From Octopus vulgaris (lineage: Eukaryota): 64,000 nucleotides of DNA. Shown in pieces: positions 55,461 to 61,709 of the stretch; positions within the stretch are counted from its first letter, which is position 1; each line of letters opens with the position of its first letter. The DNA is taken from assembly GCA_951406725.2 (NCBI GenBank), contig OX597817.1, positions 11,966,001-12,030,000 of the forward strand, written 5' to 3'. The notes beneath the pieces were generated by a model. That model searched no databases and was not told where the DNA came from. It worked only from the letters and a program-made list of their open reading frames with translations. The position numbers and the translations under genes were made by a program.

Positions 55461-56970
55461 AGTCCTCCAGTGGACCATCATGGTTTGCTTTTCTTTATAG
55501 CATTGAAGGTGTTACCGGGAGATCTGTCATTTTAGCATCTCTCGTATAAAATACTAGAAAAGATTTCGTTGCTTACTTTCAAGCAAAAGGAAAATTTATA
55601 TATCGCTTGAAATATATTAGGGCACTTAGAAGTAGAAGTACATTAATCTTAGGAACCCCAAAATGTGTGGGTGGTCATGGCTGAAATATTTTCATCATAG
55701 ATTTGCTCAATCGAAATTGGCTTGTAGCTAACAACAATTGAGACATTTAGCCATAGAGGAAACCTCTACGTTGTCAATCCACTTGCTGGAAATCATGGTA
55801 GATCCCTTACAAATCTGCTGGTACCGCTTTATAAAAGAAAATGACAAAATAGGTAGTGTCGTTCGAAATATGTTTAGGTCATAGCTAAATGTCATTTATC
55901 AAAATATGTTTGTTTGGTTAGGATTGCTATATAAGCAACTGAAACACTTATGCAGTGTTCCATGGTCTACATCAGTTAGTAGAACCTTGTCATAAGATCT
56001 ACTTACATTATCGTTATGTGTATGCAATTCACATAATATACAGAAATAAAAGAAGTTCTAGGGATGCCGCACTAAGCGTAACATTCTCAATCAGCGTTTC
56101 AAAAAATGTTTCGCTTACATTATCAATCTCGTTGAGAAGGCATTAATTATCATACAATATCATTTTTTATCTTTCTTATAAATATGATACAAATCACTGA
56201 TATCAAACTTTAACATATGGAATAATACGGATGGCACCAGAATCTCACATAGAAGCAAAGTCGTAGTTAAAATTGCATAGATGTCGTTAACATTCATCTT
56301 AGTGGAAAATGTCTTTTTCCTTCATGCGTATCAAACCAATAAGGTAGACACTACAGGATACTTCGATCTGCTAGAAATAGCAGTTTAATTTCTCTCAAAT
56401 CCTACTTTATTATCTTCGGAAAAGAAGGGAAATTTACATAATGCCGTCCTTGATGAATGGGATGCAATGATAATAGATGTAACGAGATTATCATATGTAT
56501 TCTTCATGAAGTCTGACATGGGGGATAAATAATAACAACAGCCGAGGCGCTTACAACTTACACTGCTATAACAAATATCACAGCCTTGCGGAAATAATGG
56601 TTTACTTTTTCTACCTTCAAAGCTATCTTTATAAATATATTGTGAGTGAGGGATAGATTCGTTCTCATAAACAATATCAATATATCTATTATATATCCGT
56701 TTGGCCCCAGAAGTTAAACAGAATAACTTTAATTTCAGCTGGTTGCCTTTACGAAATTAAAAGTACAATCGGTATCCGTGCTACCTAAAAAGTAATTTGC
56801 TTAAAGTTTGGACTTGTGATAATCCTGATAAATTCTTGCGAGGTAGAAGGTGGCAGTTTGTTATTACCTACCCTTGGTCTATAAGAGACTTTGGTCCTAT
56901 TATTCGAAGTTCAGGTAATATTCAGAAAAACGATACTCTTTTACTCTTTAACACGCGTTATATAATATAA

Positions 56971-57385
56971 CTCTTTACTCTTTTACTTGTTTCAGTCATT
57001 TGACTGCGGCCATGCTGGAGCACCGCCTTTAATCGAGCAACTCGATCCCGGGACTTATTCTTTTGTAAGCCCAGTACTTATTCTATCGGTCTCTTTTGCC
57101 GAACCGCTAAGTAACGGGGACGTAAACACACCAGCATCGGTTGTCAAGCAATGCTAGGGGTTTCAAACACAGACACACAAACACATACACACACATACAT
57201 ATACATATATATACATATATACGACAGGCTTCTTTCAGTTTCCGTCTACCAAATCCACTCACAAGGCATTGGTCGGCCCGGGGCTATAGTAGAAGACACT
57301 TGCCCAAGGTGCCGCGCAATGGGACTGAACCCGGAACCATGTGGCTGGTTAGCAAGCTACTTACCACACAGCCACTCCTGCGCCT
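56971..57385 (-). mobile_element. SINE family A, full length
   Basis: Complete copy. Confidence 0.92.
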
Positions 57386-57960
57386 ATGTTTATTATTATT
57401 GATTAGCTTCATATTAGCCCATCTTGAGCGGACTATATGGTCAAAGGCGCTCCAGTCTTGGCTATCTCGTTTCTTTTCAAGCATTGCATAACAGAGAATG
57501 CTTTATTTAAAGTAGCATCGTTCCTTTTCAAGACAGATACGATGTGATCTGGTGAGAAATCATTTTTCAAAAGGCGAAAGACTATCTAAAATCTTCCAGT
57601 TCGGTACAATTCACCAGTATCGAGGAGGAACTTTACTCAATGGTATTGCTCTGTTGCAAGCATTTCCATCGAATCTTATAACTTGTCCATATTTTTCCAG
57701 TAGATATCGACTGAAAATATTAAGATCAGCTTCAGCGTCTAGAAAAATCTGTAAAATTCATGGGCATTGCTTCGCCTCACTTAGCTGATAATAAAAAGAC
57801 ATTCTACAGGTACAGTAGGTATACATGGTTATTAGGAATGAAGTGTCTTGGTCATGGACACAGCAAACCACCAGTGATATAATATGAAACAACGAACTGT
57901 CAATCCATTAGCTAGGACAAGCAGAAACGTTACTACAGAGTAAAATAAACAACAATGAGA

Positions 57961-58364
57961 ATATCAATAGTTATCGTCAAGCTAATATGGCAGTCCATAA
58001 ATATAGGACGAAAGCTACCGTTGATTAGCTCCAAGAGGCCATCGCTTCTAGCTAGCTACGTGACACACGAACCTGTGTCCATTATAAACTTCGAACAGAG
58101 GAGGTCAGCCGCTTCCCCTTGCTGGTCAGCCATCTGAAGACTAGTTTCAGGGTATTTGCCCTTTATCAATGCAGAGCAGCCGCACCCAGCAGGCGTCCGC
58201 TACTGACCGTCTGTTCGAAGGATTATTTACCTAAATTCAGGAGAATACATCCAAAAATAGAAATATTAATATTTCTAAGTCTCTCTAAAGGAGACTACGG
58301 CAGCGGTACTGGATATTAATAGTTATCGTCAAGCTAATATGGCAGTCCATAAAGACTGCCATTA
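57961..58364 (-). mobile_element. Retrozyme-like element: 352-bp unit with 41-bp terminal redundancy
   Basis: Direct repeat 57961-58001 / 58313-58353 (1 mismatch), internal hammerhead, long stems, 11-nt inverted tail. Confidence 0.75.
58134..58174 (-). ncRNA. Type I hammerhead ribozyme, U3-A8 variant
   Basis: CTGCA-TTGATAA-AGGG-CAAATA-CCCT-GAAACTAGT-C-TTCAG. Confidence 0.8.
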
Positions 58365-58427
58365 TCACTTGCACATTTCATTGACTTAAGAAGCGTCAAG
58401 TCAAATAGTTAATGAGATGGCTTAGAC

Positions 58428-58575
58428 CAGTTATTGGCAAACTGTGGCTCGGGGGACTTTTTGACTGGTACGCCTGCTTTGAATTTATCGTGAATATTTT
58501 TTTAGAATTGCGGCTCTCTTGATGATGAACTGTGTCTCATGCAGCCCGCTTTTCGTAAATGACTGCCCGCGCCTG
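58428..58575. mobile_element. Possible decayed hAT MITE
   Basis: CAG...ggcaaactgtggc and gcagcccgc...tgcccgcgcCTG ends; TSD degenerate. Confidence 0.35.
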
Positions 58576-59066
58576 TCTCAGATAAACAATATGACTGAGT
58601 TTATTTTCATCGCTGAGGCAAAGACGATATAGTCAGAATAGGCGTTAACTTCTCTAAAAATGTCTAATGAGGGAGACGGACAAGATTCTTCACAGTTATT
58701 TGCTTTGTTTCATTTTAGTTCAGAGGGAGACTTAAAAAGGCCTGCTGGAAGCAAAATGTCTGAACTGTTTGGGGGTCTAAAATTTTAAACACAAAGCACT
58801 GTTGGTTCCTTTATTCCCCACAGTCATCAGTGGCCACTGTTGTATTTATCAAACGGAAGCAAACACAAAACTATCCTCATACTGCATGGATAAAAGCAAC
58901 CTTTAAAATAAATATTCGTACATTAACACTAGTTTATGACTATTGAAAGTGTGACACACTCAGACATCTGGAAACGCTCACATATAAAGATATATATACA
59001 CTGAAATGCTTTTACTCATACATATGACCATGTATCCATCTATCTTTATAACTATTACAAATACAT

Positions 59067-59138
<72 letters not shown>

Positions 59139-59468
59139 GCGTGTGAATGTGTCGGTATATGCATGGATAAATAATATATATTGTATGTACACACATACAC
59201 ACACATATATATATATATAAGCAAAGACTATATTTACACGTGCAGTTATATGCATGCTCGGTCAACGAGCACATTAACGTGTGTATATAAACGAACATCT
59301 AAAAAAATAACTGCGTAATCCTCCCGAATGTAAACAAGTTCCACATATTTTGACATCTGGGTGTATCTATATTTGTTTACGTATGCATGTATGCACGTAT
59401 GCATGAATTCATAGGGACATAAATAGATGTAAATGTACATACATGTGTGTGTTTCAATGTACATGGAA

Positions 59469-59840
<372 letters not shown>

Positions 59841-61709
59841 CTGGATGGATGAATGGATGGATGGATGGATGGATATAGACTCACACATGTTTACATATAG
59901 ATTTCGAATTATGCAATAGAAAAAAACTTTAATGGCACACTTAACATATGTATGGAGTTGAAAAACCAGAAGCCGAGGTTTTTGTCCGAGATAAAAATCT
60001 TTTTATAGACGCAGTGTTAAAAACAAAACAAAACAATATACTACAGAGTTAGGTGAAACGGAATCAGCCCAGAAACGACTGTGGGAGCAGGAGCTACGAA
60101 TATGTTTGTTAATGCTGCTTCTCAGTGTCACTCACTAATATCACTTCCGAAACGAAATTGAATCAGCTGATCTGAAGTATATAGAGATAGTGCATAAATT
60201 ATACACTGGTTTTCAAAGGTGCTACACAAGCAGAATAAAATTCGAATCATGCAATAAAAGCAGTTCTATGGTAAAATCTTTATTAAAATAACTTGTTTAA
60301 CGTGTGTGTACAATTGAAACGCCAGAGGCTGCGGTTTCCATCGGCAAAAAATTCCTTGATATACGTATTGTGTTAAAAGCAAACAAAATAATCCTTCTGC
60401 AAATCATATCTTTTACGTTCCTCCAGTTTACTCAGCAGAAAATGAGTGCCATCCGACTGATAGTGAATCCTTCATCCCTTCCGGTTGCCACAACCTCGAT
60501 GTTCCGCTGGTCAGAGAGGGAAGTCAAATAAGGTACCTATGTCGCCTCGCGACTTTAGATAATTAGCAAAAGCACGGTACAAACTACCAGGTTACACCCG
60601 TTAATGAGTTACTACTGAGTTTTCCTTTCTATATCTGTGTGTGTATACACACATATTTTTTCTGTCTCCCTTTCGAGATGAACCTCTTTTTATGATGTAT
60701 AATTATTCTTACCTATGTGTGTTTTTTCGTAGTGTAGTGGGGATTGTTTTAACTCATGGAAAATGAGCCATTTTCGATTAGGCAATTTTACAGACTTCTT
60801 TGACTTCTCATCTATGAAAATCGGAATTTTTGCGTAACAGAATCAATTTGATTAGATTAAATTTTATTTAGAAGTCAGAGTAAAATATAAGCAAACAACA
60901 AAACACGTTTTTGCCATTCCGTAACAACATACCATATATGTGAATTAGTTATAAAGTCTATCAATTTGGAAATTTTTAAATCGAAAGCTCTTGAAATTTG
61001 ATTGTTTCTGTATAAACGTTCTGAAAAAAACGTTGTTTAGATTTCGTTTTTCGATTTGGTTTGCAAGATTCTTTATGTGAGTTGGTGTGTCGAAGAATAT
61101 TCTGTTGTGTCAAGACTATTGAAAAGGGTGCAAGACGCAACGAAAATTTTAGGAAAATAAAAATGAGAGTTATTGGAAATTTTACCGGTGAGTGTGTTAA
61201 ATTATAAGGCACAAAAAGAAAATTACTCTTCTCAGACACAACAGAAATGTTTTGATTTCTTTTTATTTACCATTGCGAGAAAGAGTGATTAAAAGATCAC
61301 GGCCTCCACAAATCTCTGTATTATTTAAGACCTGCTCTAAAATCAAATAAGAGCTTTCAAAGTTATCTAATCTTTGTCCCAACAATAACATACTTAATGC
61401 CGTCTCGTAAATGCAGTTGTGATTCTGTATGTTTCTTATTTTATATGTTTTTTATGTGACACAACCAACTTTGAACATACATAACATCCCGGTGAAAAAA
61501 CAGCTTTTCAGTGTTGAAGAGGATCCCACGAATTGCTCTGGATCATTAATTTATAAACTTAATAACCCAGTGGATACAGTTCCTACACCACCTTACGATA
61601 TACCAAAATGGCACCTAATTCCTCCGTTGCTATAAAGCAAGGCATAACATAAATGGGCTTCACTTATTGATTTGATGGTGCTACCATATCGAATTGCTAA
61701 CCATGAAAC

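What the first reader, a model, noticed from the sequence alone, without database searches (positions are those of the whole stretch)
57961..58364. Retrozyme-like unit: apparent cDNA of a 352-nt hammerhead circular RNA copied 1.1 times
Seen: 41-bp direct repeats exactly 352 bp apart bracket a unit richer in GC than its flanks, with no credible ORF. A minus-strand type I HHR (58134-58174) has a palindromic stem III (ACTAGT) and a GUC site. It is nested in a long stem (CTTCGAACAGA..GGTCAG 58089-58108 with CTGACC.TCTGTTCGAAG 58203-58220), and there is a further hairpin AGTCTC/GAGACT. Known: metazoan non-LTR retrozymes are 170-400-nt HHR monomers that form circRNAs and are thought to be mobilised by Penelope-like RT. 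Inferred: the terminal redundancy reflects rolling-circle reverse transcription, and this may be an undescribed cephalopod retrozyme family. A 41-bp TSD is the alternative but is unusually long.
Basis: partly seen in the sequence, partly recalled or inferred. Interest (0 to 1): 0.9.

Follow-up and report, generated by a model that had tools for sequence, protein, structure and literature searches.

The report
Hammerhead retrozyme with Penelope-type insertions
This is one worn copy of a family of roughly 360-base non-coding repeats that carry a hammerhead ribozyme motif and are scattered through this animal genome with the insertion marks of Penelope-like jumping genes, whose enzyme likely copied them from a probably circular RNA; the family gives a testable handle on how such elements move.

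Summary
In detail: 40/41-bp repeats 352 bp apart, a minus-strand type I hammerhead, the long stem and the hairpin. Its core is the U3-A8 variant, and this copy has a private stem I mismatch.

The 41 bp is not a target-site duplication. It is a partial second lap of a dispersed family (358-365-nt unit, at least 244 copies, up to 5.5 laps). Copies have two fixed RNA-3' ends 56 nt apart, variable 5' ends and inverted arms, and often sit in microsatellites: the Penelope-like signature. Of 28 inverted copies, 22 take one arm from each end site, none takes both from one, and 6 are unclear. Laps within a locus are near-identical but locus-specific, which points to a one-unit template. A circle is likely, not shown. 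Intact Penelope-like elements with the same hammerhead core exist in the genome, but no partner was identified. RNA data were inconclusive.

Verdict: new member of the known non-LTR retrozymes. Side finding: a Tx1-type LINE inserts just upstream of the hammerhead in related families. The scan noted similar Penelope-type tandem units and a similar Tx1 target in other genomes.

The parts
57961..58353 (-). Whole insertion: 393 nt = 1.1 laps of a 352-nt unit (family unit 358-365 nt); RNA sense is the minus strand
57961..57975 (-). RNA-3' end at fixed site A (ends ...UAAUAU), one of the family's two inferred reverse-transcription start sites
   Evidence: 22 of 41 non-inverted insertions end at A, 18 at B, 1 elsewhere
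57961..58001 (-). First copy of the 41-nt redundancy (3' end of lap 1)
58089..58108 (-). 3' arm of the long stem enclosing the hammerhead
   Evidence: compensatory changes in the sister family
58133..58175 (-). Type I hammerhead, U3-A8 core, palindromic stem III ACUAGU, cut site between 58139 and 58138; private stem I mismatch at 58137
   Evidence: sequence
58203..58220 (-). 5' arm of the long stem
58257..58312 (-). 56-nt 'tail' between start sites A and B (site B at about 58257, internal in this copy), with the AGTCTC/GAGACT hairpin (58278-58296) and an AU hairpin (58258-58277)
58313..58353 (-). Partial second lap (41 nt) = this copy's variable 5' truncation, not a TSD
   Evidence: other copies end anywhere in the unit and carry this segment internally
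58354..58362 (+). 9-nt fold-back (inverted copy of 58339-58347) at the 5' junction
   Evidence: sequence

Best explanation
The locus is a decayed, 5'-truncated copy of a non-coding, hammerhead-bearing repeat family of about 361 nt (a non-LTR retrozyme) that was likely inserted by the reverse transcriptase-endonuclease of a Penelope-like element, probably copying a circular monomer RNA. SHOWN: dispersed multi-copy family; two fixed RNA-3' ends 56 nt apart; variable 5' ends; head-to-tail laps with no scar at the hammerhead cut; inverted copies with one arm from each end site; homogeneous, locus-specific laps; covarying hammerhead helices and stem III palindromes; intact Penelope-like elements in the genome with the same hammerhead core. 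INFERRED: (1) loci with two or more hammerheads are transcribed and cleave as dimers through the palindromic stem III, releasing a monomer that is ligated into a circle; (2) the Penelope-like protein cuts AT-rich DNA and primes cDNA at site A or B; (3) when both broken ends prime, one uses A and the other B on the same RNA, which gives the inverted copies; (4) synthesis runs on past one lap and stops at random. The window copy started at A, ran 393 nt, and is a dead end with one damaged hammerhead.
For: Family: 2807 first-look candidates (40 scored); 244 exact matches to a 29-nt hammerhead pattern, reversed control 0. Ends: among 69 distinct insertions, non-inverted ones end at A in 22 of 41 and at B in 18 of 41; inverted ones are A|B in 22 of 28, A|A or B|B in 0, unclear in 6 (about 2e-7 if the two arms chose independently, by hand from 0.495^22). 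Sister family: 16 of 23 inverted loci A|B, 0 same-site, 7 unclear (hand count). A two-site 'tail' and extension of both strands are described for a Penelope-like protein in vitro (PMC11167929); tail at one end, inverted 5' copies and partial tandems in PMC8557442. 39 of 69 insertions abut a microsatellite; 9 of the other 30 have a flanking repeat of 7 bp or more. One-unit template: three full laps of L122 differ at 0 sites from each other and at 6-55 from other loci; three laps of L120 differ at 1-2 and at 29-53 from others; 28 rare non-CpG alleles are shared by all laps or both arms of an insertion, against 287 single-lap ones; no gaps at the cut site. Hammerhead: 185 of 192 motifs have a palindromic stem III of at least six different sequences; core 161 U-A, 25 C-G, 6 other; stem I paired in 991 of 1152 cells against 727+-13 shuffled. 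Penelope-like elements with a 781-residue RT + GIY-YIG frame, the same U3-A8 core and ACAUGU stem III, and two 3' ends running into (AT)n.
Against: No circle or cleavage was observed. Two RNA runs gave only 187 and 232 mostly divergent reads on both strands, with no pile-up at the cut site. For the anole Penelope-like element, unprocessed RNA was the dominant substrate and the ribozyme was not needed in vitro (PMC11167929). In a related family, L238 shows 1.1 kb of an upstream Tx1 copied together with the hammerhead and start sites, so long uncut linear RNA can also serve as template. The unit has no blastn similarity to the terminal repeats in 29 Penelope-like loci; the only real hits were inserted retrozyme copies, so the partner is unidentified. 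The window copy has no detectable TSD. The 69 insertions come from best-hit and pattern searches, not a random sample. The hammerhead counts are biased by pattern-based fetching and by a regex that fixed the outer pairs of stem III. Both strands of the unit fold better than shuffles, so folding energy alone says nothing about strand or circularity.
Confidence: 0.6

Rival explanations
1. Same family and same Penelope-like enzyme, but the template is an uncut linear multimeric read-through transcript of a tandem source locus. No circle is needed, and the hammerhead acts later or elsewhere.
For: Unprocessed RNA was the dominant substrate in vitro (PMC11167929). L238 carries 1.1 kb of upstream Tx1 copied across the hammerhead. 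22 of 100 arms cross two or more hammerheads. RNA 5' ends do not pile at the cut site (3 of 100 within positions 170-190).
Against: Multi-lap loci are internally homogeneous yet differ between loci, so the lineage must pass through a one-unit stage repeatedly. No clear lap-specific differences are inherited across loci: 79 concordant against 56 discordant pairs, of which 10 concordant pairs were an alignment artefact and several came from a duplicated segment.
Confidence: 0.27
2. Laps arise by repeated template jumping on a linear, hammerhead-cut monomer, or by tandem duplication of DNA after insertion.
For: It also explains homogeneous, locus-specific laps.
Against: No gaps at unit positions 174-181 in about 120 calls. 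Private alleles are shared with the inverted arm as well (L068), which simple tandem duplication of DNA does not give.
Confidence: 0.07
3. The unit is only the terminal repeat (pLTR) of an autonomous Penelope-like element, and the copies are its 5'-truncated ends.
For: Same U3-A8 core and ACAUGU stem III as intact elements in the genome. Cervera and De la Pena report most minimal hammerheads as single motifs of truncated elements (PMC4209133).
Against: Upstream of one lap the copies continue into another lap, up to 5.5, and not into Penelope coding sequence. No similarity to 29 sampled Penelope-like loci.
Confidence: 0.03
4. The family is mobilised by an L1/Tx1-type LINE rather than a Penelope-like element.
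For: A Tx1-type LINE is physically joined to related units at many loci and once to this family (L056).
Against: The Tx1 has its own 16-17-bp duplication of the local unit sequence and sits in different unit variants, so it is an invader of the unit. No poly(A) tail. Inverted arms restart at the second fixed site rather than continuing the upstream sequence.
Confidence: 0.02
5. The 41 bp is an unusually long target-site duplication around a 311-bp insert.
For: Only the geometry of this single locus.
Against: The 41-nt segment is an internal part of the unit in the other 29 loci, whose redundancy runs from 16 nt upwards.
Confidence: 0.01

Closest known systems
Metazoan non-LTR retrozymes (Cervera and de la Pena 2020, PMC7229834; Li, Clavereau and Pollet 2026 preprint 10.64898/2026.07.22.740005)
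   Same: 150-450-bp non-coding unit in tandem, one type I hammerhead per unit, GC under 50%, highly self-paired fold, short palindromic stem III suited to dimer cleavage; size close to the mussel (350-390 bp) and axolotl (331, 353 nt) units.
   Different: U3-A8 core. Mostly dispersed 0.6-2.7-lap insertions rather than long arrays. Explicit Penelope insertion marks (two fixed start sites, tail, A|B inverted arms), whereas the parts of those papers I read argue the Penelope link from shared hammerheads, tandem layout, co-occurrence and pLTR similarity. Cleavage and circRNA not tested here.
Penelope-like elements with C-terminal GIY-YIG endonuclease and their 'tail' (Frangieh et al. 2024, PMC11167929; Craig et al. 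2021, PMC8557442)
   Same: Two reverse-transcription start sites downstream of a hammerhead, optional tail, partial tandems, inverted 5' copies, AT-rich and microsatellite targets.
   Different: No ORF; tail of 56 nt rather than 30-40; no sequence shared with the sampled autonomous elements beyond the hammerhead core.
Minimal hammerheads of Penelope pLTRs, including the U3-A8 variant of Schistosoma Cercyon (Cervera and De la Pena 2014, PMC4209133)
   Same: U3-A8 covariation in the core; palindromic helix III.
   Different: Canonical helix sizes here (I about 6 bp, II 4 bp) rather than long helix II and short helix I; the motif lies in a non-coding monomer, not beside an ORF.
Non-autonomous Chlamys elements such as MRC1 (PMC8557442)
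   Same: Non-coding Penelope-type passengers with pLTRs and multi-copy head-to-tail insertions.
   Different: Those generally resemble their autonomous partner at the 3' end; no such resemblance was found here.
Tx1-clade target-specific LINEs (Tx1 in Tx1D, Keno, Kibi, Koshi, Tx1-Mar; PMC4494074), for the side finding
   Same: A Tx1-type LINE inserted at a fixed site in a multi-copy sequence, including other mobile elements.
   Different: The target here is the stretch just upstream of a retrozyme hammerhead; no paper held both 'Tx1' and 'retrozyme'. Clade membership rests on domain order, not on a tree.

Membership tests
Non-LTR retrozyme | Unit of 150-450 bp occurring in head-to-tail copies | tested here: met
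   Full laps 358-365 nt; up to 5.5 laps
Non-LTR retrozyme | Type I hammerhead in each unit | tested here: met
   window copy has a private stem I mismatch; Rfam models missed the motif
Non-LTR retrozyme | No coding frame, GC below 50% | tested here: met
   Longest ATG ORF overlapping the unit 60 aa; GC 0.449
Non-LTR retrozyme | No PBS or polypurine tract | not tested
   Not searched for explicitly
Non-LTR retrozyme | TSDs, when present, longer than 4 bp | tested here: inconclusive
   9 of 30 non-microsatellite insertions have a flanking repeat of 7 bp or more, some in AT-rich DNA; none at the window copy
Non-LTR retrozyme | Self-cleavage of the transcript | not testable with these tools
   Only covariation evidence
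Non-LTR retrozyme | Accumulation as monomeric circular RNA | tested here: inconclusive
   Sparse, divergent, two-strand reads in two cDNA libraries not made for circles
Non-autonomous Penelope-like element | Two fixed RNA-3' ends bounding an optional tail | tested here: met
   40 of 41 non-inverted insertions end at A or B
Non-autonomous Penelope-like element | 5' truncation, partial tandems, inverted 5' copy with tail at one end | tested here: met
Non-autonomous Penelope-like element | Autonomous elements present in the genome | tested here: met
   781-residue RT + GIY-YIG frames in many copies
Non-autonomous Penelope-like element | 3' or pLTR sequence shared with an autonomous partner | tested here: inconclusive
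   None in 29 loci beyond the hammerhead core; only part of 6136 GIY-YIG candidates was sampled
pLTR of an autonomous Penelope-like element | Unit flanks an RT-endonuclease frame | tested here: not met
   Copies extend into further laps
tRNA-derived SINE | tRNA-like head | tested here: not met
   ARAGORN found none in 56000-60000; a decayed head would be missed

The most novel reading that the evidence does not exclude
These families record the Penelope mechanism in the genome: a protein dimer primes both ends of one DNA break on the same small circular RNA, one end at each of two fixed sites, and rolls round the circle, which would explain tails, partial tandems and inverted heads in one step. 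On top of this, a Tx1-type LINE has specialised on the site just upstream of the hammerhead across many retrozyme variants, a parasite of a parasite that could use the flanking ribozymes to cut its own RNA out of the host transcript.
Probability: 0.3. Interest if true: 0.8.

Novelty: new member of a known kind. Interest (0 to 1): 0.55.

Why it matters
That animal retrozymes are moved by Penelope-like elements through circular RNA is a standing hypothesis, resting on co-occurrence, shared hammerheads and pLTR similarity. This family shows the insertion signature itself, and a strict one-arm-per-site rule, on a 360-nt template small enough to synthesise, in a genome with intact candidate enzymes. 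That makes two open questions testable: whether Penelope tandems come from a circular template, and how inverted copies form. The window copy alone is an ordinary dead insertion.

Tried and rejected
Rfam at E<=1 gave only simple-repeat noise outside the unit and no hammerhead. No RNA holder was listed by the run index, which is no evidence either way. Reads from two RNA runs and contigs from two guessed-RNA runs were laid on a two-lap copy, L062: low depth, both strands, mostly under 90% alike, inconclusive. Search for the empty site through the right flank: it matches an older repeat only from about 60 nt past the junction, so no pre-insertion site was defined. Search for a partner by blastn against 29 GIY-YIG loci: none. 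Idea that retrozyme and Penelope RNAs pair through a shared stem III: the pattern search for motifs with ACUAGU returned 64 matches; the 20 fetched were retrozyme variants, and tblastn with the Penelope frame gave only one weak unrelated-position hit, so no support. Idea that L237 was an autonomous partner flanked by two hammerheads: it is a Tx1-type LINE inserted in the unit. An apparent inherited lap-specific difference at unit position 112 was a gap-placement artefact. A possible cluster of 5' ends near the Tx1 target site was not borne out (3 of 100 at 231-234). Literature searches for a cephalopod retrozyme and for Tx1 with retrozyme listed no paper describing either. Repbase, Dfam, the TE library of PMC13282606 and the supplement of PMC7229834 could not be seen, and the family may be in them under another label.

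Full report
OBSERVATION. The 41-nt repeats at 57961-58001 and 58313-58353 differ at one base and lie 352 apart. The minus strand reads stem I - UUGAUAA - 4-bp stem II - GAAA - ACUAGU - C, with the cut between 58139 and 58138. The core is the U3-A8 covariant, which Cervera and De la Pena found in Schistosoma Penelope-like elements (PMC4209133, parts 1-2 of 4 read). The enclosing long stem folds far better than shuffles (z -4.88); the whole 393 nt gives z -4.19. GC is 0.449 against 0.369 and 0.411. Rfam did not detect the motif.

FAMILY. The window lies in G000 (2.8 Gb, 227 contigs); the organism was not determined. The unit has 2807 first-look candidates, of which 40 were scored. A 29-nt hammerhead pattern has 244 exact matches against 0 for the reversed control. 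The majority unit of 29 other loci is 361 nt; the window copy lacks a 10-nt segment and has a stem I mismatch at 58137 where 37 of 37 other calls pair. It is 6-7% from its nearest sampled relatives. The 41-nt segment is internal to the other copies, whose redundancy runs from 16 nt up to 5.5 laps in all. A TSD is therefore excluded. Copies extend upstream into further laps and not into a Penelope frame, so the unit is not merely a pLTR.

INSERTION SIGNATURE. I pooled 69 distinct insertions from three searches (best hits to two queries and the first 30 pattern matches; not a random sample). Their RNA-3' ends fall at two sites 56 nt apart: of 41 non-inverted copies, 22 end at A, 18 at B and 1 elsewhere. 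Of 28 inverted copies, 22 have one arm from A and one from B, none has two from the same site, and 6 are unclear. If the arms chose independently, 22 of 22 would have a chance near 2e-7 (hand calculation). The 5' ends are spread over the unit and do not pile at the hammerhead cut. 39 of 69 copies abut a microsatellite, and 9 of the other 30 have a flanking repeat of 7 bp or more; the window copy has none. [quoted passage not shown] Frangieh et al. showed that the tail is the stretch between two internal reverse-transcription starts, and that the protein cuts and extends both strands of AT-rich DNA (PMC11167929, parts 1-2 of 4 and a term search).

CANDIDATE ENZYMES. G000 holds young Penelope-like elements with a 781-residue frame (RVT_1 E 1e-6, GIY-YIG E 4e-7), a DKG motif and a CxxxxCxxC linker. 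By the passage that linker marks the Neptune and Nematis clades; no tree was built. Their terminal repeats carry a hammerhead with the same U3-A8 core and ACAUGU stem III and end at two sites about 40 nt apart, running into (AT)n. The two inverted cases among 56 loci are both site 1|site 2. Beyond the core, the unit has no blastn similarity to 29 such loci, so the partner is not identified.

RIBOZYME. In this family stem III is ACAUGU (78 calls), ACGCGU (21) or ACUAGU (20). Over all fetched loci, 185 of 192 motifs have a palindromic stem III of at least six sequences; positions 3 and 8 are U-A in 161, C-G in 25 and mismatched in 6; stem I pairs in 991 of 1152 cells against 727+-13 after shuffling. 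These counts are biased by pattern-based fetching and by a regex that fixed the outer stem III pairs, but the inner bases were free. A sister family (350 nt, 58% identical, C3-G8 core, 8-nt palindrome) keeps the layout, the two end sites and the long stem through compensatory changes; 16 of its 23 inverted loci are A|B, none same-site, 7 unclear (hand count). Selection for dimeric cleavage is inferred from this, not assayed.

CIRCLE OR NOT. Laps of one insertion share subfamily alleles (46 of 422 diagnostic pairs differ within copies, against 4513 of 9512 between). 28 rare non-CpG alleles are carried by all laps or both arms of an insertion, against 287 single-lap ones; chance would give about one (rough hand estimate). 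Three full laps of L122 are identical and differ from other loci at 6-55 sites; three of L120 differ by 1-2 and from others by 29-53. No gaps occur at the cut site. The lineage thus passes through a one-unit template that is copied seamlessly several times, which a ligated circle explains most simply, as proposed by Cervera and de la Pena (PMC7229834; part 2 of 6, sections 14 and 17 and passages read; supplement unreadable). Against this: the anole protein preferred unprocessed RNA, and L238 shows a long composite copied across a hammerhead. A test for inherited lap-specific differences gave 79 concordant and 56 discordant pairs, with the excess largely traced to an alignment artefact and a duplicated segment. 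RNA reads were sparse: 187 in 12.9 million and 232 in 12.0 million records, mostly under 90% alike and on both strands. I put identity as a Penelope-mobilised retrozyme near 0.9 and the circle step near 0.6.

SIDE FINDING. A third related family led to a LINE with zf-CCHC, endonuclease, RT and zf-RVT domains, inserted about 25 nt upstream of the hammerhead core with a 17-bp duplication (L237). Of the 40 best 3' ends among 240 candidates, three were already held and carry the hammerhead. Of the other 37, 33 are followed by the target motif, 31 by a hammerhead core 26-36 nt downstream and 34 by unit sequence; the hammerheads are of many variants while the LINE copies are 95-98% alike. The 5' junctions of L241 and L286 match their local unit variants, which indicates repeated site-specific insertion. 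A 76%-identical relative joins the window's family at the equivalent place (L056). Tx1-clade elements are known to target other mobile elements (PMC4494074, passages); no paper held both 'Tx1' and 'retrozyme'. An unchecked note of this scan reports a similar target in a vertebrate.

NOVELTY. The class is known. The 2026 preprint (parts 1-3 of 5 read; supplements closed) sampled 31 vertebrates, three insects and one coral. PMC7229834 has no mention of cephalopods in its main text. Searches for retrozyme or hammerhead with octopus or cephalopod listed no description; PMC10886601 was seen as a listing only. A recent octopus repeat annotation mentions no ribozyme or retrozyme in text or supplement (PMC13282606; parts 1-2 of 3 and term searches), but its library, Repbase and Dfam were not available. 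Verdict: a new member of a known kind, with unusually clear mechanistic evidence; interest 0.55.

Noticed in passing
L237:2215-7471; L241; L286; L248-L284; L056:1611: Young Tx1-type LINE (zf-CCHC ORF1; endonuclease-RT-zf-RVT) inserted site-specifically just upstream of the hammerhead in many retrozyme variants, with a 16-17-bp duplication; 33 of 37 sampled 3' ends carry the target motif and 31 a hammerhead core. In L237 it lies between two hammerheads 5.65 kb apart.
   Followed up: partly
L238:6398-7834: 5'-truncated Tx1 plus hammerhead ending at site A, with an inverted arm from site B: a composite apparently copied by the Penelope-type route, so the Tx1 may also hitchhike.
   Followed up: partly
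L119:385-810; L150-L178: Sister retrozyme family of 350 nt (2164 candidates), C3-G8 core, 8-nt stem III palindrome, same two end sites; flanked mostly by 7-10-bp duplications in ordinary AT-rich DNA rather than (AT)n.
   Followed up: yes
L248-L284: At least four further hammerhead variants (stem III ACUGCAGU, ACCGCGGU, ACCCGGGU, ACUAUAGU; and a different unit in L248 and L262) point to a large radiation of related families.
   Followed up: no
L111:434-5670; L112; L113: Near-identical Penelope-like elements of about 4.7 kb with an extra upstream frame of 359-400 residues (no convincing Pfam match) before the 781-residue RT-endonuclease frame.
   Followed up: partly
window 56970-57393: Copy of a very abundant ~420-bp repeat found in the flanks of many fetched loci; not characterised.
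   Followed up: no
window 58420-58575: Fragment of an old dispersed repeat, about 72% identical to 39 other scored places.
   Followed up: no
Runs under five different organism labels hold parts of the unit, and RNA reads from one label show a consistent divergent variant, so the family probably spans several related species.
   Followed up: partly
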